NCBI GenBank assembly: GCA_045563025.1
Contig: JBJKUS010000005.1
Span: 101,988 to 165,987 of the forward strand
Length of the DNA stretch: 64,000 bases
Direction of reading: 5' to 3'
Source of the DNA: Alphaproteobacteria bacterium
GTDB lineage: Bacteria > Pseudomonadota > Alphaproteobacteria > Methylaequorales > Methylaequoraceae
Positions 41,197 to 58,248 of the stretch are shown here, piece after piece. Each line of letters begins with the position of its first letter. Position 1 is the first letter of the stretch. The notes below the pieces were generated by a model. The model was not told the DNA's origin and made no database searches. It saw nothing but the letters and a program-made list of their open reading frames with translations. A program made the position numbers and the translations under genes.

Positions 41197-41304
41197 ATAT
41201 ATGCTTTTAATATGTGATATGCCATTTATTTCTTCAATAATCGATATTTTCTAATATGATGAGATGGATATTATTTAAATACTAACTATAAGGAAGGAAA
41301 TAAT

Positions 41305-42780
41305 ATGAATATTAAAAAGAAAATTGCTTTAGCTGCTATACCTGCTGTTATGGCTCTTTCCGCAACTGATGTAAGCTCAAAAGTCTTACTTATGAGTGAC
41401 AGCGGCTGGGAAGTGTCTTTCGACGGTGCTGCTAACGCATTTCATACAACCATACCTCAACAGGAACTATGGAAACGCTAGGCTGACTACAACGAGTATA
41501 CAACTGGTGGTGAAACTGACGGCCTCAGGTATTATCCAAGGTGGTGGTGAATCTGGTAACGTTGTAAACCGTGGTGGCATGTCCAAAACTTGGACAGGGT
41601 GCAGGTGGATCTGATATTTCAGGTCAATCTCTGTCGGTCTATTACCAAACGTATGGGGTTTCACTGTAAAAGCTCCAACTAAAAGTGGTTTAGACGTTTC
41701 AGGTCGTTTGGGTCTTATACACACACATGAACGGCGACTGGTGCTTCAGCATGAAGCTAACAGTAGTAAACATTCGTGAAACTTCACTTAACTGTTGCAG
41801 GGTCTTTCGGTTCTGTTCTAATGGGAAGAAGTTTAGGCATTCACCAGTCAAACGCCATCTCTAAACGATATGACGCTATTTGGTGTCGGTGCCGCTGCAG
41901 GTAACATCGTCACTGGTACTACATCTAGGTAGAATTGGTGTAGGATACGTCTACGCTGACTGGTATCCACAAATCACTTGGACGACTCCAGGTCTTAGGA
42001 CCAATTGGAGCTAAAATTGGTATTTTACAAGCGACTCCGCTTCAGTCTAGTACTGGTGCCGACGCAACAAATACAAAATACCCAAGAGTCGAAGCTCAGT
42101 TAGACTATACGGTTGAAGTAGGCGGTCTTAGGCGGTTACGTTTGGGTTGATGGTCAATACCAGAACGTCGATGCGAGATACATTGGGCTGAGAGTCTAAG
42201 CTTTACCGAAGCAAGAAACACTGGTAGTTCGTAACCTTAAGTGGTGTAGCTAGCACGTTGCAGTCGGCGACGAATCAGTCTGAAGGCATTGAAGTGGGTG
42301 GAGTATGGTTTCGGTACGAGATTAACATTCCAAGGCTTCAAACTAGTTGCTTCTGGTTTCTATAACCAAGGATATAGGCTCATGCAGTTGCAAGGTAACA
42401 CAAATGGCGGCGCTTATTCCGGATCTCTTGATGAGAGAGGTAAAGCCTAGACACTTCTATGGTGGGTACATCCAAGGTACATATGACTTCGGTCAAGGTA
42501 CAAACGTAGGTTATTCTTACGGTTCCAACCACTCAAGTTCAAACCGGACAGGATGCAGGTGAACTCAACCAACGTTACACACTTGGTGGCGGTGGCACTG
42601 CAGTTAGAACAGATGCTCTATCCAAAACTATGTTGAGTCACACATGGGTATGATCTGGCACAATGTCACTGATGACTTCAGAGTAATCGCCGAAGGTGTA
42701 TTCTTCAGAGAGCGCACTGGCATGGTGCTGGTTCACAAGAAAGCACACAGGTATCTGTTGGTGCATTCTTTTTCTGGTAG
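41305..42780 (+). pseudogene. Porin-like Gly-rich outer-membrane beta-barrel gene, disrupted by about 10 frameshifts/stops
   Basis: Strong RBS AGGAAGGA 7 nt upstream of ATG. Signal peptide MNIKKKIALAAIPAVMALSA. Gly-rich segments appear in all three + frames (TASGIIQGGGESGNVVNRGG; LGQGAGGSDISGQSLSVYYQTYG; FGVGAAAGNIVTGTT; GGYVWVDGQYQNVDARYIGL; FYGGYIQGTYDFGQGTNVGYSYGS; LGGGGTAVRTDALS). The sequence ends ...VSVGAFFFW-stop, the aromatic C-terminal signature of beta-barrel proteins. GC is elevated. No ORF over 72 aa exists in the track. Confidence 0.6.
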
Positions 42781-42810
42781 AATTTTTACCTGAGAATAAA
42801 CTATACACTT

Positions 42811-42842
42811 AGGGGAAGGTTTTATTAGCCTTCCCTTTTTGT
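42811..42842 (+). terminator. Rho-independent terminator of the porin-like gene
   Basis: GGGGAAGG-ttttattag-CCTTCCC followed by TTTTT. Confidence 0.75.
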
Positions 42843-43989
42843 TATGAGACGCAAATTAATAGATACTAATTTCCGCTTTCTTTTTAACTGAGTTGTTCAA
42901 CTTCGTAACCGATTCACTTGATTCATTTACCGGTTCTTTTACAAATATACGACAAAGTGACGAAATATTATTTCTCAGTGCATACGAGAACGTAAAAGTC
43001 GTTGAACAAGACTCACAACTTAACTGGGAAGAACATTCTCACCCAGTTAATATCTCTGAAGAGAGAGTAGAGGGGGCATCTAAAATTACTCTTGTTCAGG
43101 GTGGGTAGCAAAACTAAGTCCTCTGTTCCCAGGAGAAAAAATTAGAATCCATATCAGACAGTATCTCCGAAGGGTCTATGCAAAAGCGAATAGAAGTGAA
43201 GATGTCGTTTTTACTAGCGGAAGAGTTGGTATTCAGAGACTCTGCCGGGCACAAGAGTTAAAAGACAACAGAGTAGTCTCAGGAAGGGTGTTTTACAACA
43301 AAGATGGGCTTAAATGTCATTTTTGGCTCAGTTTTGACGAAAAGGGTTCTCAAAGCACAACAGATCCAATGCTAGAAAGTCGAAACCCAGACCTAAAAAC
43401 TAAACCCATACGTATGCCGGGATCAAGATTAGTATCCGTCAAAAACCCTTTTACGCTATGGCAGTACCACCCAACTCAGGAATCCAAGAGACCACGAGTA
43501 GCCAAGAGGAAGGGTGGATTGGATAATACTCACACGTAAGTCACTCATGGTGGCAAGAACCAATCTCTCTGAAAGTGAAAGAAAACTCCGCAAGGTCATC
43601 TAACATATTGAAGTCCAGGGGCTAAAAAGCGAAGTTCAGAGCAGCTAAGACAAGAGCTTCACGAGTCATTAAAGGGAGGTCCAAGCCAACAGATATCAGA
43701 TATCCGTGCGCAAGGCCATGTGTATCATCGTCACCCAAATGTTCAACCTTCTGGTTATCAATATCCAAGACCGCTATCCCGCTACCGACACCCATACCCA
43801 TACCAACATACCGTCAAGCCATACCCAAACCCCAATCAACAGGCTTATCCAAATCAACGAATTATCAGGACAATCCCAATCAAGGGCCGACTAATCAAGC
43901 GAGTTAAGTTTAAAATCACTTGAAAGTATGAGATCGAGAGGTTTAATCAGCGAGGAGTCTTATCTAAGAAAGCTAAAAGAGCTGGGTTA

Positions 43990-44716
43990 TTAATTAAATT
44001 CAACCTCGAAGTTCCATATTATGGTGTGGTTGGCAGATGCATCAGTCAGTCCGTGCAAATAACCAACTGCCCACTCATAATCCATGTCACCGTACAGTTT
44101 AAACCCAGACTCTAACTGAAAACCATACTGATGCTCCTGTTCTCCAAAGACTCTAAATTTTGAAATCTCTCCAAAGTCACTAAACCCAATCAACCCAAAA
44201 TCAATGAGTTCGAAAAAATACCTCTTTGATGTAAAAGTAATTACTTAAATCGAAGGTTGTTGACCCCCCGGCTCTACTTCCAACTTGTTTTTCAAATATA
44301 AAATTAGTAATTAAACCTAATTCATCATTATACAGTTCATTTAAGTATTTGTATTCTATTTCGTCACCTTCAGAGTTTTCTGTTACAAAGTTATACGAAA
44401 AATAAAGTGCGGCAGCAAAATTTTCAAAATCAAAAATTTGCACTTGATTCTGAAATTCAGTTTTTTCCCAATCCAGCGGAGTATCTTCCTTGTCAGAAAT
44501 ATGAAATTCCAATTCACTTTGCCAGAAACTTGTCCAAGAATATTCAGTCTCAAGAACGTGATGATGATTTTTATTTTCTTCGTTCCTATCATCGACATCA
44601 AAATGACCTCTCCATTCAAAAGATTGTCTTCCCTCTTCAACTTTTGGACTGTATATTTTATGGTGAGCTTGTAAATAAGAAAATTTAAAGAATAAAATTA
44701 AAAAAACAAGTTTCAT
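43990..44716 (-). pseudogene. Outer-membrane beta-barrel protein (His-rich N-terminal region; MipA/CopB-like?) interrupted by a frameshift at a C6/G6 homopolymer (about 44194-44200)
   Basis: ORF 44201..44716 has a signal peptide MKLVFLILFFKFSYLQA and alternating beta-strand pattern. It continues in a shifted frame as ORF 43990..44193, ending ...WNFEVEFN. The junction falls at the run gaCCCCCCgg. Confidence 0.5.
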
Positions 44717-45424: not shown

Positions 45425-45630
45425 AATCAATATGATAGAGAGTTTTTTGATTTTTTTTCTTGAATTCAATATTTTTTAAGTCATCCTATACCATAAGGAT
45501 ATGGGGAGGTTTTTGGATGAGTGTTTTTGTCATCCGTAGATCTACTTGTATGTTATAATTAACTAGTCGGCCTAATTTGAATAGTTACGAGTTTGTCCGA
45601 CAATTTTAATAACTACGAAAGGATAATATT

Positions 45631-46341
45631 ATGGATTATCAGCTTAAAGCGGATGATTTCGTGGGTGTAACTTTTTGGATAATTTCTGTATCAATGGTTG
45701 CATCAACAGCATTCTTCTTTTTTGAATCTAACAGTGTTGCTAGACACTGGCAAACATCTGTGAGAGTGGCTGGACTAGTTACACTTATCGCAGCTGTTCA
45801 CTACTACTATATGAGAGATGTTTGGGTTGCCACTGGTGAATCTCCAACTGTTTACCGATACATCGATTGGCTCCTAACCGTTCCACTTCAGATGATAGAA
45901 TTCTATCTAATTCTTGCAGCAGTTGGCGCAGCAACCGCTGGAATTTTCTGGAGACTTCTAATTGGTACACTTATAATGCTTATTGGTGGCTTTATGGGTG
46001 AAGCTGGTTACATAAATGCAACTGTTGGCTTCATAATCGGCATGGCAGGATGGATTTATATTTTGTACGAAGTCTTTGCCGGTGAAGCTGCACAAGCTAG
46101 TGCATCAAGTAACTCGGAAGGAATGAAATCAGCATTCAATGCATTAAAATGGATTGTATCAATCGGTTGGTCAATTTACCCAATCGGTTATTTCCTAGGT
46201 TATCTTTCAGGTGCGGGTGCAGATGCATCTACACTTAACTGGGTATATAACTTAGCTGATTACATTAATAAAATTGCATTTGGTGTAATTATATGGGCTG
46301 CTGCTAAAGCTGACATCAGCCAAAGCTTAAATTTTATGTAA
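45631..46341 (+). CDS. Proteorhodopsin, blue-tuned (Gln at position 105 equivalent)
   Basis: 7-TM protein. RYIDWLLTVPLQMIEFY contains the proton acceptor D97, donor E108 and Q at the L/Q105 tuning site. Schiff-base Lys is in YNLADYINKIAFGVIIW. Confidence 0.95.
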   Translation: MDYQLKADDFVGVTFWIISVSMVASTAFFFFESNSVARHWQTSVRVAGLVTLIAAVHYYYMRDVWVATGESPTVYRYIDWLLTVPLQMIEFYLILAAVGAATAGIFWRLLIGTLIMLIGGFMGEAGYINATVGFIIGMAGWIYILYEVFAGEAAQASASSNSEGMKSAFNALKWIVSIGWSIYPIGYFLGYLSGAGADASTLNWVYNLADYINKIAFGVIIWAAAKADISQSLNFM

Positions 46342-46351
46342 ATCTTAAGGT

Positions 46352-46388
46352 AAGGGAAACATCCTAAAATATGTTTCCCTTATTTTTT
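46352..46388 (+). terminator. Rho-independent terminator after the proteorhodopsin gene
   Basis: Perfect 11-bp inverted repeat AAGGGAAACAT-cctaaaat-ATGTTTCCCTT followed by ATTTTTT. Confidence 0.8.
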
Positions 46389-47480
46389 ATGATAAAAAAC
46401 CTAAGTTATAAAAATTATCTAAAAAATCTTAATTTTGTCCGATCATCTGATAATTGGACGGACCTAAATAATTTTTCAAATAGTATAAAATCATCACTAC
46501 CTGATAAGTTAGATTATGTAAGTAGATTAAACATAGTCGATTTAAAAATGAGAGAGATTTTATGCGATGACTCGTGGATGGGACATTGTGCAAAGTATCA
46601 ATTACAATCAGGGGGGAAAAGATTTAGAGCATTACTAGCTTTGATGTCTGCAGACCTTTTCGATTTAGACATTAATTCATCCATAAACGTTGCAGTTTGC
46701 TGTGAATTTATTCATAATGCATCTCTAATACACGATGACCTTCAAGATAGAGACCTTCTTAGAAGAGGTCTTCCCACAATTTGGAATAGATTTGGTGATC
46801 ACACAGCCATAAATTTAGGTGATTACTTTATTTCAGGTTCATTTGAAATATTAACTAATATAAAAGTAAATCCCAACTACAAGTGTACTGCAATATCTGA
46901 ACTTAGCCAGATAATAAAGCAAACTTTAAAAGGACAATCACTAGAAATTTTAGGAAGATCTGATTTTGATTTACAAATGGAAGATTATGAATCGACTGCT
47001 AAGGCAAAAACTGGAGGATTGATTTGCTTGCCAATCAAACTCATTATGATACTAAAAGGAAAAAAAATTGATGATGATATGTTTCAACCTTTGTATGAAG
47101 CTGGACTTGCTTATCAGATTCAAGATGATCTTTCAGATTTTCTGGGAATTAAAGACAGAGGTTTACCTGGACGAGACTTAAAAGAAGGAAAAATGAATGT
47201 ACTAATAATGCATTTCTTAAAATATGCTACAAACGGAGAAAAATTTTTATTGCAAGAATTTCTAAAAAAGAAAACTGAATCAATTTCTGAAGAAGATATT
47301 CTTAATTGGATAAAAACAATAGAAAGCAAAGGTATAATTGAAAAATCAATTCAGCACTTAATTGATGTATCAAAAAAATCAATTGACTTGTCTAGCGAAA
47401 TGGACATAAGATTGACAGAAATTGTGAAGTTTGTTAATAAAAATATACTAAATAGAATTTCAAAAAAAATTAAAAATTAA
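46389..47480 (+). CDS. crtE: Geranylgeranyl diphosphate synthase
   Basis: GGKRFRALLAL, FARM IHDDLQDRDLLRRG, SARM YQIQDDLSDF. The track start (46371) lies inside the terminator hairpin, so the start is moved to the next Met. The true start is uncertain, and could be as late as about 46548. Confidence 0.8.
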   Translation: MIKNLSYKNYLKNLNFVRSSDNWTDLNNFSNSIKSSLPDKLDYVSRLNIVDLKMREILCDDSWMGHCAKYQLQSGGKRFRALLALMSADLFDLDINSSINVAVCCEFIHNASLIHDDLQDRDLLRRGLPTIWNRFGDHTAINLGDYFISGSFEILTNIKVNPNYKCTAISELSQIIKQTLKGQSLEILGRSDFDLQMEDYESTAKAKTGGLICLPIKLIMILKGKKIDDDMFQPLYEAGLAYQIQDDLSDFLGIKDRGLPGRDLKEGKMNVLIMHFLKYATNGEKFLLQEFLKKKTESISEEDILNWIKTIESKGIIEKSIQHLIDVSKKSIDLSSEMDIRLTEIVKFVNKNILNRISKKIKN

Positions 47481-47481
47481 A

Positions 47482-48954
47482 ATGAAAAAAGCCATTGTAG
47501 TTGGTTCAGGTTTTGGTGGTATCGCATCAGCATTAAGACTAAGAGCAAATGGTTACGACGTAGAGATTTATGAGAAACTTGACCAAATCGGAGGCAGGGC
47601 AAGAGTATTTAAAAAGTCTGGATATACATTTGATGCGGGGCCAACTGTAATTACTGCACCATTTTTATTTGATGAACTTTTTGAATTGTTCAGTAAAAAA
47701 AGAGAAAAATATATAAAGTTTGTAAAGTTAGAGCCTTGGTATAGATTTTATTTTTCTGAGAATAATAAACATTTTGATTACTCAGAGAGTCTAAAGAAAA
47801 CTGAAAAAGAAATAGCTAAATTTAACAAAGAAGATATTGAAGGTTATTATAAATTAGTAGCTTTCTCTGAAAAAATATTCAATGTTGGTTTTTTAAAACT
47901 ATCAACTGCACCATTTCACAATTTCTTCTTTATGCTTAAACAATTACCCTCTTTATTTAAACTTAAAAGTTATCACACCGTATTTGGATTAGTTGGAAAA
48001 TTTATTAAAAATAAACAATTACGACAAGCGCTAAGCATACAGCCACTGCTATTAGGAGGAAATCCAACTTCAACTACATCTATATACAACTTAATACACT
48101 TTTTAGAGCGAAAATGGGGAGTTCATTATGCAGTTGGGGGCACAGGTGGCCTGATAAAGGCCTTAAAAAAGCTTATGATTGAGGAGAATATTAAAATTAG
48201 CATAAAATCTGAAGTAACAAAATTAATTACTGATAGAAATAAAGTCTTGGGTATTGAAGTAAATAATAAGAAAAAAATATTTGCTGATAAAGTTGTCATA
48301 AATGCAGACCCTGCTTTTACTTATAAAAATCTGTTGAAAACGCCATACAATAAAAAATGGAATCAGAATAGATTAAGTAAACTTGATTATTCAATGGGTC
48401 TTTTTGTTTTGTATTTTGGCACCAAGAAAAAATATAAAAACATAGCTCATCATACAATCTGGATGGGAAAAAGGTATGAAGGATTATTAGATGATATTTT
48501 TAATAAACAGATTCTTGCTGAAGATTTTAGTTTATATCTTCATAGACCAACTGCAACTGATAAAACAATGGCTCCAAAAAATTGTGATTGCTTCTACGTT
48601 TTGTCACCTGTACCAAATCTATTAGCCAAAATTAATTGGAAAGTTGAAGCAGAAACATATAAAAATAAAATAATCAAAGCTCTGGAAAATACCATCCTAC
48701 CCAACCTTCAAAAAAATATTGATGTCTGTTTTTATATGACACCTGATGACTTTAAAAATGATTATTTATCATTAAATGGAACTGGTTTTTCAATAAGCCC
48801 TATATTTACACAATCTGCATGGTTTAGATTCCATAATAAATCTGAAGACTTCAAGAATCTTTACTTTGTTGGAGCAGGCAGTCATCCAGGTGCTGGAGTT
48901 CCGGGGGTATTAAGCTCTGCAAAGGTTCTTGAGAATATAATTGCAAATGAATAA
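47482..48954 (+). CDS. crtI: Phytoene desaturase
   Basis: AIVVGSGFGGIASALRL FAD fold, 490 aa, and crt cluster context. Confidence 0.9.
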   Translation: MKKAIVVGSGFGGIASALRLRANGYDVEIYEKLDQIGGRARVFKKSGYTFDAGPTVITAPFLFDELFELFSKKREKYIKFVKLEPWYRFYFSENNKHFDYSESLKKTEKEIAKFNKEDIEGYYKLVAFSEKIFNVGFLKLSTAPFHNFFFMLKQLPSLFKLKSYHTVFGLVGKFIKNKQLRQALSIQPLLLGGNPTSTTSIYNLIHFLERKWGVHYAVGGTGGLIKALKKLMIEENIKISIKSEVTKLITDRNKVLGIEVNNKKKIFADKVVINADPAFTYKNLLKTPYNKKWNQNRLSKLDYSMGLFVLYFGTKKKYKNIAHHTIWMGKRYEGLLDDIFNKQILAEDFSLYLHRPTATDKTMAPKNCDCFYVLSPVPNLLAKINWKVEAETYKNKIIKALENTILPNLQKNIDVCFYMTPDDFKNDYLSLNGTGFSISPIFTQSAWFRFHNKSEDFKNLYFVGAGSHPGAGVPGVLSSAKVLENIIANE

Positions 48955-49840
48955 TGCTAAAAAACTTACTCTTAAGTTCAGGGCTAAAACATTTTACTTT
49001 GCTTCAGTATTTCTCCCAAATAAAATAAGAAAAGATATTGAAAATTTATATATCTTCTGCAGATATGTAGATGATATTGGTGATGGTGGGAATTTTACAA
49101 AAAAAAATGCTATTAAAAAGCTTAGTCAAATAAAATCACAGATATTAATAAAAAAATCAGATAACCTAATTATTTCTGAATTTATTTCTTTGCAAATCAA
49201 ATACAAAATTAACGCTTCAATTCCTATTGATTTAATAAATGGAGTAAAGAGTGATCTCAATAATGTTGATTTTAAGAATAATAAAGAATTACTAAAATAT
49301 TGTTATCAAGTTGCTGGAACTGTAGGGTATATGTTTTGCAAAATCATAAAGGTAAATAACACTAAATTGATTTTTAGAGGAGTACAGCTAGGAATAGCAA
49401 TGCAACGCACAAATATTTCTAGGGATATAAGAGAAGATTTAGAATCTAATAGGATGTATTTGCCTAGGGAGGCAAGACAATATAGAGGCGAAAAAAAAAA
49501 AATAATACATAATAATAAGTTGAAGAAAACTATTTCTGAAGATTTGTTAAGTTTTTTAAAGCAAACTGAAAAATTTTATCAAAACTCTTGGATAGGTATA
49601 CGCAAACTTCCATTTAAATACGCTGTCCCCGTAAGTATAGCGGCAGAACTTTATCAGAGGATTGGAAATAAAATTATAAAAAATAATTGTAATATTTGGG
49701 ATAGAAGAATACATCTCAACAAATTTGAAAAAGTAAAATATTCCTTCTTTGCACTTTATAAATTATTTTTCTTAAAAACAAAATTAGAAAGCAAAATAGA
49801 TATCGAATGTAAATGTCTTATAGATAATATAAAAGGTTGA
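48941..49840 (+). CDS. crtB: Phytoene synthase
   Basis: YIFCRYVDDIGDG and YQVAGTVGYM squalene/phytoene synthase signatures. Confidence 0.9.
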   Translation: MQMNNAKKLTLKFRAKTFYFASVFLPNKIRKDIENLYIFCRYVDDIGDGGNFTKKNAIKKLSQIKSQILIKKSDNLIISEFISLQIKYKINASIPIDLINGVKSDLNNVDFKNNKELLKYCYQVAGTVGYMFCKIIKVNNTKLIFRGVQLGIAMQRTNISRDIREDLESNRMYLPREARQYRGEKKKIIHNNKLKKTISEDLLSFLKQTEKFYQNSWIGIRKLPFKYAVPVSIAAELYQRIGNKIIKNNCNIWDRRIHLNKFEKVKYSFFALYKLFFLKTKLESKIDIECKCLIDNIKG

Positions 49841-50973
49841 ATATATATATTATGAATAATTACGATATTATAATAATTGGAGCTGGCCTATCTGGCTTAA
49901 CTTTAGCCTTAGAACTTTCAAAGAAAACTGCTAAAAGTATTTTAATTCTTGAAAAAAAAAGAAAATTATTTTTTGACAAAAATTGGTGCTTTTGGAATCA
50001 ACCATATAATCCATTTACCTCTAAATATGATAATCAATGGGAAAATATTGCAATTAAAATAGATGGTAAAGAGATAGTCCATAATGATTTTAACATAAAA
50101 TATTTACACATCAAATCATCAACATTTTATAAAAAAGTAAGTAAGGAACTAAAACAAAAAAAAATAGAAATAAAAATGAATCAAAATATTGAAAAAATAG
50201 TTAACACTGATGATGAACAAACGGTTTTATCAAATAAAAAACAATATAAGACTAAATTAATTTTTGATAGCAGACCCGATTTTTATAAAGAAAATAAAGG
50301 ATACTTATATCAACATTTTTATGGTGTGGAAGTGATCTTTAAAAATGCCTTATTAGATGATAAAAAAGTAATGTTAATGGATTTTCAAAATTTTCAAAAT
50401 GGCATTAATTTTTTTTACGTACTTCCTTTTTCAAAAAGAAAGGCTTTATTTGAAACAACTTATTTTTCCACAAAAGTTTTAAAAGAAGAAGAATATAAAA
50501 ATGATATAAAAAATTACTTAAAAGCTAATTACCCAAATAAGGAATTTTCACATAAATTTGTTGAAAAAGGCGTCATTCCTATGTTTTTAAAAAACATAGA
50601 AACCTCCTCGCTGGTTAAAATCGGTACACCAGCAAATTGGGTAAAAATCTCCACGGGATATTCATTCCAAAATTCATTTATTAATTCTAAAGAAATCGTA
50701 AACAAACTAATAAATAAAAAAGAACTTAAAATAAAAAAAAATATAATAAATGATTTTTTAGATAGGACTTTTTGTTTTTACATTAAAAATTACAGTGAAG
50801 ATTCAAAACAATTTTTTAAATGTTTCTTTTATAAAAACAATATTAAGAACATTGTTTGTTTTTTAGTTGGAAAGGCAAGTTTTATTCAAGTTGTAAGAAT
50901 TATATTGACTCTCCCTAAAGTTAAATTAATTATTTCAGCTTTTAATATCTTGAAAGAAAGTTTAGTAAAATGA
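49837..50973 (+). CDS. crtY: Lycopene beta-cyclase
   Basis: N-terminal FAD/NAD fold YDIIIIGAGLSGLTLALEL, 378 aa, between crtB and blh. Confidence 0.8.
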   Translation: MNIYIMNNYDIIIIGAGLSGLTLALELSKKTAKSILILEKKRKLFFDKNWCFWNQPYNPFTSKYDNQWENIAIKIDGKEIVHNDFNIKYLHIKSSTFYKKVSKELKQKKIEIKMNQNIEKIVNTDDEQTVLSNKKQYKTKLIFDSRPDFYKENKGYLYQHFYGVEVIFKNALLDDKKVMLMDFQNFQNGINFFYVLPFSKRKALFETTYFSTKVLKEEEYKNDIKNYLKANYPNKEFSHKFVEKGVIPMFLKNIETSSLVKIGTPANWVKISTGYSFQNSFINSKEIVNKLINKKELKIKKNIINDFLDRTFCFYIKNYSEDSKQFFKCFFYKNNIKNIVCFLVGKASFIQVVRIILTLPKVKLIISAFNILKESLVK

Positions 50974-51851
50974 TTAAAATTGAAACTAAGATTTTTTTAC
51001 TTGTGAATGTTTTTTTTGTTATCCTTCTATCATTTTTTGAAAATATGATCTATTCAAGTTTTATAACTCAAATTTATATTTTTATTATTCCATTACTATG
51101 GCCTGGACTAGCACATGGTAGTATTGATATTCTAACCGCTAAAAGAAAAAATATTATTTCAAGTGATAAAAATAATCTTATTTTCCTAATATCATATGTA
51201 ATAATTCCTGTTTTTTTTTTTTTAATTTGGCTAAATTTTCCAAATTTTACTTTTACAGTTTTTTTAGTTCTTTCATTACTTCATTTTGGAATAAGTGATA
51301 AATTATATTTTGACAAATTAATTAGTTTAATTGAAATTTCATTAAGAGCGTTAATTGTTTTCACATTACCAATTGTATTTCATAATTATGAAACAATTCA
51401 GATTGTAAGGTTTCTTTATGTTTCAGATGAATATTTACTAACTTTGACTAAATTTTTTGAGTATCTAGTTTATTTTATAATTCCCCTAATGGCTTTGTTC
51501 ATCTACTATTCTTTTATTAAACAAAATGTTGGAGGAATTTTAGAAATATTTATAATTCTATTTTGTTTTTATTTCTTTAAACCTCTTGTTTCTTTTTTAC
51601 TTTATTTTTGTTTTCTTCATTCCACAAGACACCTTTTAAATGAAAAAAAATTATTAAATTTATCTTTTAAAAAAATATTTTTTAAAACAATTCCAATGAC
51701 ATCAATTGTTGTTGTGGGAACCTTTATACTTCTTTTTTTAAGTTATTTTTTCTTTAAATCTTCTAGTTTATTATTTTCCAGCTATATTATCATAGCCCTT
51801 TTCTGCTTTACAATACCACATATAATTTTAATAAATTTTACAAAGAACTAG
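50970..51851 (+). CDS. blh: Brp/Blh-family beta-carotene 15,15'-dioxygenase (retinal synthesis)
   Basis: 293 aa polytopic membrane protein with conserved His (PGLAHGSID, LLHFGISD, FLHSTRH). It is the terminal gene of the crtEIBY cluster next to a rhodopsin. Confidence 0.8.
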   Translation: MIKIETKIFLLVNVFFVILLSFFENMIYSSFITQIYIFIIPLLWPGLAHGSIDILTAKRKNIISSDKNNLIFLISYVIIPVFFFLIWLNFPNFTFTVFLVLSLLHFGISDKLYFDKLISLIEISLRALIVFTLPIVFHNYETIQIVRFLYVSDEYLLTLTKFFEYLVYFIIPLMALFIYYSFIKQNVGGILEIFIILFCFYFFKPLVSFLLYFCFLHSTRHLLNEKKLLNLSFKKIFFKTIPMTSIVVVGTFILLFLSYFFFKSSSLLFSSYIIIALFCFTIPHIILINFTKN

Positions 51852-52654
51852 TAAATTTCTTTTTTTAAATTACTAAACCAATTTTTTTTTTTTACTTTTG
51901 TATATGAATCAATGTTTTTAGGAATTTTAAATTTATATTCATCTTGATTACTTATTGTTCTCGTCTCTAAATTTAGTCTTTTTGTGTTACTTAAAAGACT
52001 ACCGTGAATATGATTACCAGAGAATATTAATACATCGCCAAATTCTAAATCAATACTTTTTGTGTCACTTTTTTTAAATTTAAAATTTGAAAAAGGTGTT
52101 GATGGATAGTTTTTTGAAGTTTTATATTTTTCAAAACTCCACTCCTTGCTCGTATTTTCTACTTTTTTATTAAAATATTTTGGAATTAAATAAATAGAAT
52201 TATTCTCTTTCACATTTTGCAATGGAATCCACCAATTTATTTGGTGAAAAATGTTAGACGCCCAGGTATCTCTATGGGCTTTAGCGGGTTTTAACAAACC
52301 TTTAGCTTTAGAATTGTTTTTTGGACTATATCTAAATGTAATTTTATCAGATAAGATTTCATCTATATTAAACTTCAAATGTTCAAGAAACACTGCAAAT
52401 TTCTTTAATAGTACTTTTGATTCTTTAATATTTTTTTGAAAGCTTACGAGTGAAACTTCATTAATCTCTTTAGCTCTATCATTGTTAATAAAATCATCAA
52501 CATCAATTTTAAAAAAACTTTTAAACTTTTTTAGCACGTAATTATTAAGATCAATAATTTGAATGTTATTTCTTAAAATAAAAACTTTGCCATCATAAAT
52601 AGACTGTTTAAATAGTTTGATATCTTTTATTTGTCTAATTCTTACAAATTCCAT
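51848..52654 (-). CDS. Fe(II)/2-oxoglutarate oxygenase superfamily protein (PhyH-like)
   Basis: 268 aa; HRDTW (HxD) and a later HGS His consistent with the 2-His-1-carboxylate facial triad. Confidence 0.5.
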   Translation of the reverse strand: MEFVRIRQIKDIKLFKQSIYDGKVFILRNNIQIIDLNNYVLKKFKSFFKIDVDDFINNDRAKEINEVSLVSFQKNIKESKVLLKKFAVFLEHLKFNIDEILSDKITFRYSPKNNSKAKGLLKPAKAHRDTWASNIFHQINWWIPLQNVKENNSIYLIPKYFNKKVENTSKEWSFEKYKTSKNYPSTPFSNFKFKKSDTKSIDLEFGDVLIFSGNHIHGSLLSNTKRLNLETRTISNQDEYKFKIPKNIDSYTKVKKKNWFSNLKKEIY

Positions 52655-52697
52655 ATTATTTTTAGAATTTTTCGTTAATATATTATTGAATCATTTT

Positions 52698-53114
52698 ATG
52701 AAGTATTTATCAAAGAAAATAGCGTTAAAAATTTTAGGAGTCGAAAAACTTGAACATAGCATCGTAATTAGTGACCCTAATACAGAAGGTTGTCCAATGG
52801 TTTATATAAGCGAAGAGTTTTCTAAACATACAGGATATAGTGTTGAAGAGTCATTAGGTAGAAACTGCAGATTTCTTCAAGGCCCTGAAACTGATGAAAA
52901 TGACATAGAACATATAAGAGTAGCTTTGAGGTCAAAGAAAAAAATTACAATAGATATACTGAATTATAAAAAAAATGGAGAAAAATTTTGGAATAGACTT
53001 AGAATTAGACCAATTTTTAATGAAAAAAACGAATTAATATATTTTGCAGGTGAACAGAACCCTATATCAGTTGAATCCGTTAGGAGATATATTTTTAATA
53101 AAATTATTGAGTAG
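52698..53114 (+). CDS. Short LOV-domain protein (flavin-binding blue-light photoreceptor; no effector domain)
   Basis: LGRNCRFLQGPETD flavin-adduct Cys motif and canonical LOV core ...ILNYKKNGEKFWNRL...YFAGEQ. The start is set to the internal Met MKYLSK because the track ORF start overlaps the divergent neighbour. Confidence 0.85.
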   Translation: MKYLSKKIALKILGVEKLEHSIVISDPNTEGCPMVYISEEFSKHTGYSVEESLGRNCRFLQGPETDENDIEHIRVALRSKKKITIDILNYKKNGEKFWNRLRIRPIFNEKNELIYFAGEQNPISVESVRRYIFNKIIE

Positions 53115-53562
53115 AGCTTTGGTATTCATACTGAAGATCCAAATAAGACCCTCCTTCACACTGTATAACATTTTCAGGACCCTTATTATCATTTTTCCTC
53201 TTTTGGGATATTAAAAACAAATTCTGATAATAAATAGCCTGTCTCTCTTGTAACGTCCATAAAGTCCTTTCATCTAAATCAAATGATCTTTTTGAATTTT
53301 TTTGGAAGTGATGAACCATTTCGTGTAATATTATTGATTGATCACATATGTTTTTTTCAGGCTCCATATCATTAATAAAATATATTCCATCGGATTTAAC
53401 ATAATAAGCTTTTACTTTGCAGTTATCCGAAGAAAAACATGCTTTTTGAGACATTTCTGTTTGTGACAATGCAAAGAATTGGGGAGCATCAATTTTTTTA
53501 CTAAATTCAGTATTTTCGATTATCCAAGATGTTAAAAAAACTAGTAGCTTTTCAGATATCAT
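53104..53562 (-). CDS. Hypothetical small HExxH (zincin-like) protein, paralog B
   Basis: 152 aa; SIILHEMVHHFQ and ERQAIYYQNLFL. It is a paralog of 27040..27519. Confidence 0.5.
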   Translation of the reverse strand: MISEKLLVFLTSWIIENTEFSKKIDAPQFFALSQTEMSQKACFSSDNCKVKAYYVKSDGIYFINDMEPEKNICDQSIILHEMVHHFQKNSKRSFDLDERTLWTLQERQAIYYQNLFLISQKRKNDNKGPENVIQCEGGSYLDLQYEYQSSTQ

Positions 53563-53852
53563 TTTTCCCTACTTACAATTATTTTACTGATTTGAAGGCC
53601 AGTTTTTAAATCAAATACCTTTATGACTTTCGTGTTATTTTCAGTAAAAATTCCAACATATAATTTTTTGCCGCTTATCTCAAAGGAATTTGCAGAGCCA
53701 TTATTATTTGAAATTGGGCTAAGTTCCAAATTTTCAACAATTTTTATATCATTATTTTTAAATTTATATATTAAAGCTACTATAGTAACTGAAAATAATA
53801 GTAGAATTACTATACCAAGCGAAATAACTATTTTTTTAAGGTTTTGAACCAT
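53559..53852 (-). CDS. Hypothetical small membrane-anchored protein
   Basis: 97 aa, N-terminal TM IVISLGIVILLLFSVTIVALI; 4-nt overlap with the downstream HExxH gene, which suggests a two-gene operon. Confidence 0.45.
   Translation of the reverse strand: MVQNLKKIVISLGIVILLLFSVTIVALIYKFKNNDIKIVENLELSPISNNNGSANSFEISGKKLYVGIFTENNTKVIKVFDLKTGLQISKIIVSREK

Positions 53853-54925: not shown

Positions 54926-58248
<3,323 letters not shown>

What the first reader, a model, noticed from the sequence alone, without database searches (positions are those of the whole stretch)
45631..53114. Light island: blue-tuned proteorhodopsin + crtEIBY-blh retinal operon + PhyH-like oxygenase + stand-alone short LOV photoreceptor
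The PR gene carries Gln at the 105 tuning position (PLQMIEF), which indicates a blue-absorbing, open-ocean-type pigment. It is immediately followed, after a strong terminator, by a full GGPP-to-retinal pathway on the same strand. Directly downstream and divergent are a 2OG-oxygenase-like gene and a 139-aa LOV-only protein with the canonical GRNCRFLQG cysteine. Co-localisation of an ion-pumping rhodopsin, its chromophore pathway and a flavin blue-light sensor suggests coordinated light sensing and energy harvesting. A short LOV protein lacking any output domain must signal through a partner, possibly the adjacent PhyH-like enzyme or the HExxH pair.
Basis: partly seen in the sequence, partly recalled or inferred. 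Interest (0 to 1): 0.7.

Follow-up and report, generated by a model that had tools for sequence, protein, structure and literature searches.

The report
Proteorhodopsin retinal operon with LOV sensor
A marine HIMB59/AEGEAN-169-type bacterium carries the well-known blue-light proton pump and its retinal-making operon, and next to them a small flavin blue-light sensor related to one that controls pigment synthesis in another marine bacterium; close relatives have lost that sensor, so a working link between sensor and pump is plausible but unproven.

Summary
The window has a Q105 (blue-tuned) proton-pumping proteorhodopsin, a conserved intrinsic terminator, crtE-crtI-crtB-crtY-blh, a divergent Fe(II)/2OG oxygenase, and a 138-aa (not 139) LOV-only protein with GRNCRFLQG.

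The organism belongs to the HIMB59/AEGEAN-169 clade (MED-G10-like), not Pelagibacterales proper.

The block is inherited chromosomal synteny, not a mobile island. It is collinear from DUF3126 to purA/hisS in all related genomes examined. GC3 is native, and there are no tRNA genes in the window.

LOV is the only variable gene. It sits on the opposite strand, inside a minus-strand unit of a TM protein, an HExxH protein and the oxygenase. An abundant sister lineage keeps that unit and the PR operon but lacks LOV, with a 12-bp junction. A rooted tree nests this lineage among LOV+ clades, which implies one loss. So the oxygenase and the HExxH protein do not depend on LOV.

The LOV is a DsLOV-type short LOV (PDB 4KUK) with all flavin-contact residues conserved. 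DsLOV controls carotenoid and BChl synthesis in Dinoroseobacter. One Geminicoccaceae lineage independently places such a LOV beside a rhodopsin-crtEIBY-blh cluster. Elsewhere the family sits beside photolyase and photo-oxidative-stress genes.

Verdict: known parts, an apparently unreported adjacency, regulatory coupling unproven.

The parts
45459..45630 (+). PR 5' region. It holds motifs conserved across lineages (CTTGAAT 45459-45465, TATGGGGAGG 45500-45509, Shine-Dalgarno-like GAAAGGA 45617-45623) and a promoter-like TTGTCA-16-TATGTT / TGTTATAAT at 45527-45558.
   Evidence: Alignment of 14 upstream regions and the promoter scan. The motifs occur in both LOV+ and LOV- lineages. Function is inferred, not shown.
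45631..46341 (+). Blue-absorbing (Q105) proton-pumping proteorhodopsin, 236 aa, with no cleavable signal peptide.
   Evidence: Pfam PF01036 E=4e-49. Alignment to 4JQ6, 2L6X and 4KLY shows Q at 105 and conserved D97, T101, E108, H75, D227 and K231. Q105 is present in all 22 related HIMB59-clade loci.
46347..46388 (+). Intrinsic terminator (16-bp stem, 8-nt loop, U-tract) between PR and crtE.
   Evidence: dG -19.4 kcal/mol, z=-4.63. Conserved with compensatory stem changes in 23 loci.
46389..47480 (+). crtE (GGPP synthase), 363 aa, with a conserved N-terminal extension of about 60 aa. The start codon abuts the terminator U-tract.
   Evidence: Pfam polyprenyl_synt E=7e-56. An ATG lies 0-9 nt after the T-run in 11 lineages, and the N-terminal motif is conserved.
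47482..48954 (+). crtI (phytoene desaturase)
   Evidence: Pfam Amino_oxidase E=4e-27 and NAD_binding_8. Collinear in relatives.
48941..49840 (+). crtB (phytoene synthase)
   Evidence: Pfam SQS_PSY E=1e-48.
49837..50973 (+). crtY (lycopene beta-cyclase)
   Evidence: Pfam Lycopene_cycl E=2e-48.
50970..51851 (+). blh (beta-carotene 15,15'-dioxygenase, makes retinal)
   Evidence: Pfam BCD E=4e-33.
51848..52654 (-). Fe(II)/2-oxoglutarate oxygenase of the PhyH superfamily, 268 aa, substrate unknown. It converges on blh (4-bp overlap) and diverges from LOV (43-bp spacer).
52698..53114 (+). Stand-alone short LOV photoreceptor of the DsLOV type, 138 aa.
   Evidence: PAS_9 E=4.6e-18. Best PDB match is 4KUK DsLOV, E=3e-36. 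C57 in GRNCRFLQG and all flavin-contact residues are conserved. A 138-aa family with more than 1200 homologues.
53104..53562 (-). 152-aa HExxH (HEMVH) protein with four conserved Cys, a putative small Zn-metallopeptidase-like protein. Its 3' end overlaps LOV by 11 bp.
   Evidence: Invariant H80, E81, H84, H85, C42, C48, C73 and C135. Weak hits to DUF6647 in 11/11 members, DUF6782 in 7/11 and Peptidase_M76 in 7/11. No usable structure model.
53559..53852 (-). 97-aa single-TM protein, first gene of the minus-strand TM-HExxH(-oxygenase) unit.
   Evidence: ORF and hydrophobic N-terminus. Conserved position in relatives, with a 4-bp overlap with the HExxH gene.

Best explanation
This is a vertically inherited chromosomal neighbourhood of a HIMB59/AEGEAN-169-clade alphaproteobacterium. 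It is built around the classical proteorhodopsin photosystem.

(a) Shown: a Q105 blue-absorbing, DTE-type proton pump is followed by a conserved intrinsic terminator. The crtE start codon abuts the terminator's U-tract, and crtEIBY-blh follows on the same strand.

(b) Inferred: there is no room for a promoter between the terminator and crtE. The retinal operon is therefore most likely transcribed by partial read-through of the PR terminator, or from a promoter inside the PR gene. This would give much PR mRNA and little crt/blh mRNA.

(c) Shown: a clade-specific minus-strand unit lies next to blh. It comprises a TM protein, an HExxH protein and a PhyH-superfamily 2OG oxygenase. It occurs with or without LOV, and its function is unknown.

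(d) Shown: a DsLOV-type short LOV gene sits on the opposite strand between the HExxH and oxygenase genes. It was ancestral to this group and has been cleanly lost in at least one abundant lineage.

(e) Inferred: the LOV protein binds FMN and forms the Cys57-flavin adduct in blue light, probably with fast dark recovery (M34 corresponds to DsLOV M49). It dimerises through its N-cap and signals in trans by protein-protein contact with a regulator that is not identifiable in this window. Its likeliest output is light/dark tuning of pigment (retinal/carotenoid) and photo-stress genes. It is an accessory modulator, not an obligate part of the photosystem, and not a partner of the adjacent oxygenase or HExxH protein.

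My estimates: LOV is a photoactive flavin sensor, about 0.9. It regulates the PR/retinal genes specifically, about 0.3. The adjacent oxygenase or HExxH protein is its effector, about 0.1.
For: Identity of the parts.

Taxon: exact protein matches to 'alpha proteobacterium MED-G10', which clusters with HIMB59 (bioRxiv 10.1101/134635).

Synteny: the block from DUF3126 to purA/hisS is collinear in 11 GTDB species representatives and in long metagenome contigs.

Terminator: conserved, with compensatory changes. crtE starts 0-9 nt after the U-tract and has a conserved N-terminus.

LOV-less sister lineage: the locus is otherwise identical, and the oxygenase-HExxH junction is 12 bp. A crtI+crtY NJ tree rooted on Geminicoccaceae places this lineage inside the LOV+ clades, bootstrap 196/200.

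Composition and mobility: LOV GC3 equals that of its neighbours. No tRNA genes were found. No integrase appears among the gene calls for the related loci.

LOV chemistry: the window equivalents of DsLOV V38, M49, N71, C72, R73, Q76, R89, N104, N114 and Q135 are all present.

Function of the closest characterised relative: deleting dslov abolishes spheroidenone and BChl a accumulation, and the dark state is the active state (PMC4335406).

Contexts of the LOV family elsewhere:
- A rhodopsin-crtEIBY-blh cluster in one Geminicoccaceae lineage.
- Photolyase-related genes, SDR, a FAD oxidoreductase and an RpoH-like sigma factor.
- A GSHPx, SDR, DUF3833, CMAS and DUF1365 cluster.
Against: - No expression or biochemical data exist for any gene here.
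- Read-through is inferred from geometry only. A promoter inside the 3' end of PR is not excluded.
- The tree uses only two operon genes, neighbour joining and a distant outgroup. Gain of LOV twice at the same site is unlikely but not impossible.
- The PR upstream region carries the same conserved motifs in LOV+ and LOV- lineages, so there is no LOV-specific cis element.
- The Geminicoccaceae adjacency is confined to one narrow lineage. LOVs at 78-85% identity lack it, so it counts as a single extra event.
- The window LOV has a 15-18-aa C-terminal tail and a Cys where DsLOV has N47, so its kinetics and oligomerisation may differ from DsLOV.
- I could not test whether the LOV-less genomes carry a LOV gene elsewhere.
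Confidence: 0.6

Rival explanations
1. A true functional 'light module'. LOV is the dedicated blue-light/dark regulator of the adjacent PR and retinal genes. It would match chromophore and opsin synthesis to illumination, as DsLOV does for photopigments in Dinoroseobacter.
For: - DsLOV is the closest solved and characterised relative, and it is required for carotenoid and BChl accumulation.
- LOV lies within 900 bp of blh in every LOV+ genome.
- A rhodopsin only 33% identical, with its own crtEIBY-blh, lies divergently next to a DsLOV-type gene in a Geminicoccaceae lineage.
- LOV absorbs near 450 nm (DsLOV dark-state maximum about 449 nm), the same spectral range as a Q105 blue-absorbing PR.
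Against: - The whole region, including housekeeping genes, is collinear, so adjacency is not informative.
- The LOV-less lineage keeps an unchanged PR promoter region, terminator and operon.
- Most DsLOV-type genes are not near pigment genes.
- No DNA-binding partner can be seen in the window.
Confidence: 0.3
2. LOV is a general light / photo-oxidative-stress sensor. Its output could run through RpoH-type or other stress regulons. Its position beside the retinal operon is incidental inherited synteny.
For: - In other Alphaproteobacteria the orthologues sit beside photolyase-related DPRP genes (8 loci), FAD_binding_7 photolyase genes (5 loci), an FAD amine-oxidase-like gene, SDR and DUF4149.
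- Others sit in a GSHPx-LOV-SDR-DUF3833-CMAS-DUF1365 cluster.
- An RpoH-like sigma gene is divergently adjacent to LOV in L023 and L044.
- rpoH lies 1.8 kb downstream of LOV in the window.
- RsLOV is reported to affect photo-oxidative-stress genes (as cited in PMC4335406).
Against: - None of the photolyase or stress genes is adjacent to LOV in the HIMB59 clade.
- rpoH adjacency in the window is part of general synteny and is kept in LOV-less genomes.
- This rival does not exclude the first one.
Confidence: 0.4
3. LOV signals through its immediate neighbours, by light-gating the 2OG oxygenase or the HExxH metalloprotease-like protein. A variant of this idea is antisense or transcriptional interference, since LOV lies inside their operon.
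For: - The architecture is tight. There is a 43-bp divergent spacer to the oxygenase and an 11-bp convergent overlap with the HExxH gene.
- In LOV-less genomes the three minus-strand genes are contiguous, which looks like an operon. Transcription across LOV would therefore be antisense to it.
Against: - Both neighbours are fully conserved where LOV is absent.
- Neither neighbour occurs next to any distant LOV orthologue.
- Synonymous sites at the LOV 5' end show no excess conservation that would mark an embedded promoter.
- Such tight packing is normal in streamlined genomes.
Confidence: 0.1
4. The region is a horizontally acquired genomic island that carries a complete light-use kit.
For: - PR genes are known to move between lineages (general knowledge).
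- LOV shows a presence/absence pattern.
- GC is raised just upstream, at 41.3-44.2 kb.
Against: - The block is collinear with housekeeping flanks in all relatives.
- GC3 is native for every gene.
- There are no tRNA genes in the window, no integrase or transposase among the gene calls for related loci, and no Rfam hits.
- The raised GC belongs to envelope-protein genes, not to the PR block.
Confidence: 0.04

Closest known systems
Proteorhodopsin photosystem gene cluster (PR + crtEIBY-blh), described on BACs MED66A03/RED17H08 (Sabehi et al. 2005, PMC1175822)
   Same: The gene set and order are the same: PR linked to crtE-crtI-crtB-crtY-blh. The host is also alphaproteobacterial-type. All five enzyme families are confirmed here.
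   Different: No idi gene was seen in the block. A conserved terminator sits immediately before the crtE start codon. The cluster is followed by a clade-specific oxygenase/HExxH/TM unit and, in some lineages, a LOV gene.
Blue-absorbing proteorhodopsin (Med12 BPR, PDB 4JQ6; HOT75 BPR, PDB 4KLY)
   Same: Q at position 105, the DTE motif, H75 and K231. E=1e-81 to 4JQ6.
   Different: There is no N-terminal signal peptide: the protein starts at the equivalent of the mature N-terminus, and clade members are 231-236 aa. The spectrum has not been measured.
DsLOV, short LOV protein of Dinoroseobacter shibae (PDB 4KUK; PMC4335406)
   Same: A stand-alone LOV with an N-terminal cap and no effector domain. 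It aligns over residues 12-123 at E=3e-36. The adduct Cys, all flavin H-bond residues and the M49 'fast-recovery' methionine are conserved.
   Different: The window protein has an extra, conserved 15-18-aa C-terminal tail after QNP. It has Cys at the DsLOV N47 position (CPM instead of NPM). The host is a rhodopsin phototroph, not a BChl phototroph. The gene lies next to a retinal operon.
PtlH / PhyH-type Fe(II)/2OG dioxygenases (PDB 2RDN, 2A1X) and TIGR04324 'sporadic carbohydrate cluster 2OG-Fe(II) oxygenase'
   Different: Sequence identity is only 10-16%. The protein is below the curated thresholds of both PF05721 and TIGR04324. It belongs to an uncharacterised family of 854 cluster representatives. 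The substrate is unknown.
PmSB-LOV / LitR pair of Pseudomonas mendocina (PMC9758184)
   Same: It is the precedent that a 'short' LOV acts by binding a separately encoded transcription factor (abstract).
   Different: It belongs to a different short-LOV subfamily (PpSB type, with a J-alpha helix). No LitR/MerR gene was seen next to the LOV here.

Membership tests
Proteorhodopsin, blue-absorbing proton pump | Seven-TM microbial rhodopsin fold with a Schiff-base lysine (K231) | tested here: met
   PF01036 E=4e-49. K aligned in ...DYINK....
Proteorhodopsin, blue-absorbing proton pump | Proton acceptor D97, T101 and donor E108 (DTE motif), plus H75 | tested here: met
   RYIDWLLTVPLQMIEF and AVHYYYMR aligned to GPR and BPR structures.
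Proteorhodopsin, blue-absorbing proton pump | Gln at tuning position 105 (Leu or Met in green PRs) | tested here: met
   Q is aligned to Q105 of 4JQ6 and to L105 of 2L6X. The tuning rule is as stated in PMC12137139.
Proteorhodopsin, blue-absorbing proton pump | Absorption maximum near 490 nm and light-driven H+ export | not testable with these tools
   Needs expression and spectroscopy.
PR photosystem operon (crtEIBY-blh) | All enzymes from GGPP to retinal present, contiguous and on the same strand as PR | tested here: met
   Five Pfam families above the gathering thresholds. Genes overlap or abut each other.
PR photosystem operon (crtEIBY-blh) | Retinal production in vivo | not testable with these tools
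   Shown for homologous clusters in PMC1175822, not for this one.
LOV photoreceptor domain | PAS fold with the GXNCRFLQ motif carrying the adduct-forming Cys | tested here: met
   PAS_9 E=4.6e-18. G54-R-N-C57-R-F-L-Q61-G.
LOV photoreceptor domain | Flavin H-bond and phosphate residues (DsLOV N71, R73, Q76, R89, N104, N114, Q135) | tested here: met
   The window equivalents N56, R58, Q61, R74, N89, N99 and Q120 are present. Most are invariant in the family.
LOV photoreceptor domain | Blue-light photocycle (about 447 nm to 390 nm) with thermal recovery | not testable with these tools
   Needs purified protein.
DsLOV-type short LOV | No fused effector domain, and an N-terminal cap preceding the core | tested here: met
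   138 aa with only PAS domains. The alignment to 4KUK begins at residue 12, inside the N-cap.
DsLOV-type short LOV | No C-terminal (J-alpha) extension after the core | tested here: inconclusive
   The window protein has a conserved tail, ISVESVRRYIFNKIIE, after QNP. DsLOV is described as lacking a C-terminal extension, and the Geminicoccaceae LOV ends at QNPV.
DsLOV-type short LOV | Met at DsLOV position 49 (linked to the 9.6-s recovery) | tested here: met
   M34 is invariant in the family. Its role is as discussed in PMC4335406.
DsLOV-type short LOV | Controls photopigment synthesis | not testable with these tools
   Known only for D. shibae.
Fe(II)/2OG dioxygenase, PhyH superfamily | HxD...H iron-binding triad and a 2OG-binding Arg | tested here: met
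   H127, D129, H215/H217 and R226/R232 are invariant in 24 sequences. Which His and which Arg is functional is inferred.
Fe(II)/2OG dioxygenase, PhyH superfamily | Double-stranded beta-helix fold | tested here: met
Fe(II)/2OG dioxygenase, PhyH superfamily | Scores above the curated thresholds of PF05721 or TIGR04324 | tested here: not met
   18.9 bits against 22. 42.9 bits against 150. It is therefore a superfamily member but not a member of either curated family.
HExxH zinc metallopeptidase | HExxH motif conserved | tested here: met
   H80-E-M-V-H84(H85) is invariant in 11 sequences.
HExxH zinc metallopeptidase | Membership of a defined peptidase family or fold | tested here: inconclusive
   Only sub-threshold hits to DUF6647, DUF6782 and M76. 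No PDB match. The model has pLDDT 37.
Horizontally acquired genomic island | Atypical composition, mobility genes or a tRNA target, and a variable chromosomal site | tested here: not met
   Native GC3. No tRNA genes. No integrase or transposase among the gene calls for related loci. Collinear flanks in all relatives. Only the LOV gene varies.

The most novel reading that the evidence does not exclude
In a subset of the abundant HIMB59/AEGEAN-169 bacterioplankton, a DsLOV-type flavin sensor is the light/dark switch for the rhodopsin photosystem. It would control PR expression, read-through into the retinal operon, or both. This would be the first identified photoreceptor-based regulator of proteorhodopsin phototrophy in a streamlined oligotroph. 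Natural LOV-plus and LOV-minus sister lineages provide a built-in comparison. As a secondary reading, the conserved PhyH-like oxygenase next to blh might act on an isoprenoid or retinoid product of the operon.
Probability: 0.25. Interest if true: 0.75.

Novelty: new member of a known kind. Interest (0 to 1): 0.42.

Why it matters
How streamlined oligotrophic bacteria control proteorhodopsin phototrophy by light, if they do at all, is poorly understood, and I know of no dedicated photoreceptor identified for it. Here a DsLOV-type sensor sits beside the retinal operon in one of the ocean's abundant clades. Its only characterised close relative governs pigment synthesis. A sister lineage has precisely lost it.

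This makes the question testable with existing diel metatranscriptomes, by comparing LOV+ and LOV- genomes, and with simple biochemistry. If there is no coupling, the locus is an ordinary PR photosystem with unrelated neighbours. It also flags two conserved families of unknown function, a PhyH-like oxygenase and an HExxH protein, that consistently accompany the retinal operon in this clade.

Tried and rejected
- Rfam over the whole window at gathering thresholds gave no hits. ARAGORN found no tRNA genes.
- The consensus terminator scan missed the PR terminator because its loop is longer than the scan allows. I recovered it by reading the sequence and folding it.
The single-sequence AF2 model has pLDDT 37 and is unusable, so I ran no fold search. 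A profile search of PDB sequences gave only noise.
- I looked for a promoter embedded antisense in the LOV 5' end, using synonymous-codon identity in sliding windows over 14 orthologues. The 5' end gave 0.59 against 0.56 overall, which is no signal.
- I considered a sigma-32-type promoter (CTTGAA ... CCTATA) upstream of PR, given that rpoH is nearby. The spacer is about 20 nt, too long by my recollection of the sigma-32 consensus (general knowledge). The -10-like element is absent in clade B. Rejected.
- I considered that the oxygenase makes a hydroxylated carotenoid antenna. There is no supporting evidence. In the source read here, such antennas are described as serving xanthorhodopsins and green-absorbing PRs (PMC12137139), and this PR is blue-tuned. 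The nearest sequence family is a 'carbohydrate cluster' oxygenase. I kept it only as a low-probability idea.
- The acquired-island reading is rejected on composition, synteny and the lack of mobility genes.
- I searched for further LOV-rhodopsin adjacencies among metagenomic relatives of the Geminicoccaceae LOV. Only the two closest contigs have the adjacency. Contigs at 78% LOV identity with 7-kb flanks do not, and one at 85% shows no rhodopsin in its only ~0.8 kb of upstream sequence.
- Literature searches for LOV together with PR, blh, HIMB59 or AEGEAN-169 found no report of this adjacency. The library is incomplete, so this does not prove novelty.

Full report
**1. What is there**

The 45.6-53.9 kb stretch of this roughly 29% GC window is tightly packed with genes.

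- The 236-aa ORF at 45631-46341 is a microbial rhodopsin (PF01036, E=4e-49). Residue-level alignments to solved structures put its Gln opposite Q105 of the blue Med12 PR (4JQ6) and opposite L105 of green PR (2L6X).
- D97, T101, E108, H75, D227 and K231 are all conserved. It is therefore a DTE-type proton pump with the blue-tuning residue. The tuning rule is as restated in PMC12137139.
- The protein begins at the equivalent of the mature N-terminus of GPR, so it has no signal peptide. Clade members listed are 231-236 aa.

**2. Terminator and retinal operon**

- The consensus scan reported no terminator after PR, because the loop exceeds its limit. The sequence folds into a 16-bp hairpin followed by UUAUUUUUU at 46347-46388, with dG -19.4 kcal/mol, z=-4.6 and 0/200 shuffles folding as well.
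- An equivalent hairpin plus T-run follows PR in all 23 related loci I examined. The stem sequences differ but stay complementary (GGGAAACA, GGGAAGCA, GGGGAATAT, GGGGGATT and others).
- In 11 lineages an ATG lies 0-9 nt after the T-run. It opens a frame whose first ~60 residues carry a conserved motif (...S-x-x-NW...) ahead of the polyprenyl-synthase domain. The crtE start is therefore 46389, not the 46371 ATG that lies inside the stem.
- crtE, crtI, crtB, crtY and blh all match their Pfam families far above threshold and overlap or abut one another.
- No space is left for a promoter between terminator and crtE. I infer that the retinal operon is fed by partial read-through of the PR terminator, or by a promoter inside PR. 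This is an inference from geometry, not a demonstrated fact.

**3. The downstream genes**

*Oxygenase.* The minus-strand 268-aa gene (51848-52654) hits Pfam PhyH only below threshold.
- A 24-sequence alignment has invariant H127-x-D129, H215/H217 and R226/R232.
- NCBIfam gives a full-length but sub-threshold match to TIGR04324.
- An exhaustive profile search finds 854 cluster representatives. All of those I scanned are uncharacterised.
- It is a PhyH-superfamily Fe(II)/2OG oxygenase of unknown substrate.

*LOV.* The gene starts at ATG 52698, 43 bp from the oxygenase start, and encodes 138 aa.

*HExxH and TM genes.* The 152-aa minus-strand gene overlaps the LOV 3' end by 11 bp. It has an invariant HEMVHH and four invariant Cys, and only weak DUF6647/DUF6782/M76 similarity. 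The 97-aa gene upstream of it is a single-TM protein.

**4. The LOV protein**

- It belongs to a large family of 138-140-aa proteins (over 1200 hits). The best PDB match is DsLOV of Dinoroseobacter shibae (4KUK, E=3e-36, residues 12-123).
- I mapped the residues listed in the DsLOV paper. V38, M49, N71, C72, R73, Q76, R89, N104, N114 and Q135 correspond to V23, M34, N56, C57, R58, Q61, R74, N89, N99 and Q120 here. All are present and most are invariant in the family.
- Two differences stand out. There is a Cys at the DsLOV N47 position (CPM instead of NPM in the HIMB59-clade sequences). There is also a conserved 15-18-aa C-terminal tail.
- DsLOV binds FMN and recovers in 9.6 s. Its deletion abolishes spheroidenone and BChl a accumulation, with the dark state proposed as the signalling state (PMC4335406). 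Its effector is unknown.

**5. Whose genome, and is it an island?**

- Several window proteins are identical to proteins of 'alpha proteobacterium MED-G10'. That MAG clusters with HIMB59 (bioRxiv 10.1101/134635). HIMB59 is synonymous with AEGEAN-169 / 'SAR11 subclade V' (PMC10308909).
- A scan of one genome per GTDB species with the LOV alignment found 11 species with at least 66% LOV identity. All are titled Alphaproteobacteria or Rickettsiales bacterium, and none Pelagibacter.
- In all of them, and in long metagenome contigs, the order is strictly collinear: DUF3126, DUF3429, PR, crtEIBY, blh, oxygenase (-), LOV (+), HExxH (-), TM (-), rluD, rpoH, purA, then hisS.
- GC3 of LOV (0.20) equals that of its neighbours. 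There are no tRNA genes in the window and no integrase or transposase among the gene calls for related loci.
- This is conserved chromosomal synteny, not an acquired island. Because housekeeping genes are equally conserved in place, the conserved adjacency of LOV to the retinal operon is not in itself evidence of functional coupling.

**6. LOV is the one variable gene**

- PR homologues at 82% identity form a very abundant cluster (seen on 408 contigs). They come from genomes whose locus is identical except that LOV is missing.
- In those genomes the oxygenase start and the HExxH stop are 12 bp apart, and the three minus-strand genes form a contiguous operon-like unit. This holds in four independent assemblies.
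- An NJ tree of CrtI+CrtY rooted with Geminicoccaceae places this LOV-less lineage as sister to the window's clade, with a second LOV+ clade outside (196/200 bootstraps). The most parsimonious reading is that LOV was ancestral at this site and was lost once, cleanly.
- Three consequences follow. The PR photosystem works without LOV. The oxygenase and HExxH protein are not LOV-dependent. LOV in effect sits antisense inside their transcription unit.
- I looked for an embedded promoter signal in LOV synonymous sites and found none.
- The PR upstream motifs (CTTGAAT, TATGGGGAGG, GAAAGGA) are shared by LOV+ and LOV- lineages.
- All PRs at this locus carry Q105, whether or not LOV is present.

**7. 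What the wider LOV family says**

- Among about 70 more distant orthologues (50-62% identity; Rhodobacteraceae, Rhodospirillales, Defluviicoccus and others), none has the oxygenase or HExxH neighbours.
- Recurrent neighbours are photolyase-related DPRP (8 loci), FAD_binding_7 photolyase (5), an amine-oxidase-like flavoprotein (5), DUF4149 (6), SDR (4) and, twice, a divergent RpoH-like sigma factor.
- A marine Tara contig has GSHPx-LOV-SDR-DUF3833-CMAS-DUF1365. By my recollection this gene set resembles the singlet-oxygen regulon of Rhodobacter (general knowledge, not tested here).
- One exception is notable. In a Geminicoccaceae lineage (L056, L079, and metagenome contigs L098 and L099), LOV is divergently adjacent to a green-type (L105) rhodopsin. 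That rhodopsin is only 33% identical to the window's PR and is followed by its own crtE-crtI-crtB-crtY-blh.
- LOV relatives of that lineage at 78% identity, with 7-kb flanks, lack the rhodopsin; one contig at 85% shows none in its short (~0.8 kb) upstream flank. It therefore counts as one independent event.
- The family is thus habitually placed among light-related genes, and twice beside a rhodopsin photosystem.

**8. Interpretation**

- The parts are secure. The PR plus crtEIBY-blh module is the classical photosystem cluster (PMC1175822).
- The LOV is very probably a functional FMN blue-light sensor of the DsLOV type that signals in trans.
- Its target cannot be read from this locus. A role in tuning retinal/PR expression is plausible, at about 0.3. 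A general light-stress role is at least as likely, and the two are not exclusive. A partnership with the adjacent oxygenase or HExxH protein is unlikely, at about 0.1.

**9. Novelty**

- I found no paper in the searchable library that mentions a LOV gene next to a PR/blh cluster, or LOV in HIMB59/AEGEAN-169.
- Every component is nonetheless a member of a known family.
- The real value of the finding is the natural LOV+/LOV- contrast. It makes the question of light regulation of PR phototrophy testable.

Noticed in passing
window 41300-44716: Three consecutive envelope genes appear broken by frameshifts, while the flanking genes are intact: a porin-like gene, a ~360-aa lipoprotein-like gene with a Q/P/Y-rich repeat, and a 242-aa beta-barrel protein. 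The region has GC of 0.42-0.50 against about 0.29 elsewhere. The homologues are intact in L010, L011 and L013. These are either pseudogenes or assembly/polishing errors in a hypervariable surface-protein region.
   Followed up: partly
window 45631-45680 (PR N-terminus): The PR of this clade lacks the cleavable signal peptide seen in GPR and SAR11 PR. It starts at the mature-equivalent N-terminus, and homologues are 231-236 aa.
   Followed up: partly
window 45459-45630; alignment A4: The PR upstream region holds invariant motifs in both LOV+ and LOV- lineages: CTTGAAT, TATGGGGAGG about 120 nt upstream of the ATG, and GAAAGGA. This suggests a long conserved leader or regulatory element of unknown nature.
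   Followed up: no
window 46389-46570 (crtE N-terminus): CrtE carries a conserved N-terminal extension of about 60 aa (motif S-x-x-NW) ahead of the polyprenyl synthase domain. Its start codon touches the PR terminator U-tract.
   Followed up: partly
window 52788-52799 (LOV residues 31-34): HIMB59-clade LOVs have Cys at the position of DsLOV N47 (motif CPM instead of NPM). Per PMC4335406, that residue influences adduct decay.
   Followed up: no
L023 8803-9732 and L044 8818-9672: In two Rhodospirillales-type MAGs, an RpoH-like sigma-70-family gene lies divergently 270-330 bp from the LOV orthologue, with a DPRP photolyase-related gene nearby. In the window, rpoH (54926-55819) lies 1.8 kb downstream of LOV.
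   Followed up: partly
L079 2978-11118; also L056, L098, L099: A Geminicoccaceae lineage has LOV divergently adjacent to a green-type rhodopsin-crtE-crtI-crtB-crtY-blh cluster. A Peptidase_M50+CBS gene follows downstream of LOV.
   Followed up: yes
L095 2314-6722: A marine Tara contig places a DsLOV-type gene in a GSHPx-LOV-SDR-DUF3833-CMAS-DUF1365 cluster. By my recollection this gene set resembles photo-oxidative-stress regulons.
   Followed up: no
protein P0539 (representative library): A 506-aa relative of the oxygenase is fused to an N-terminal SAM methyltransferase domain. This hints that the wider family acts in small-molecule modification.
   Followed up: no
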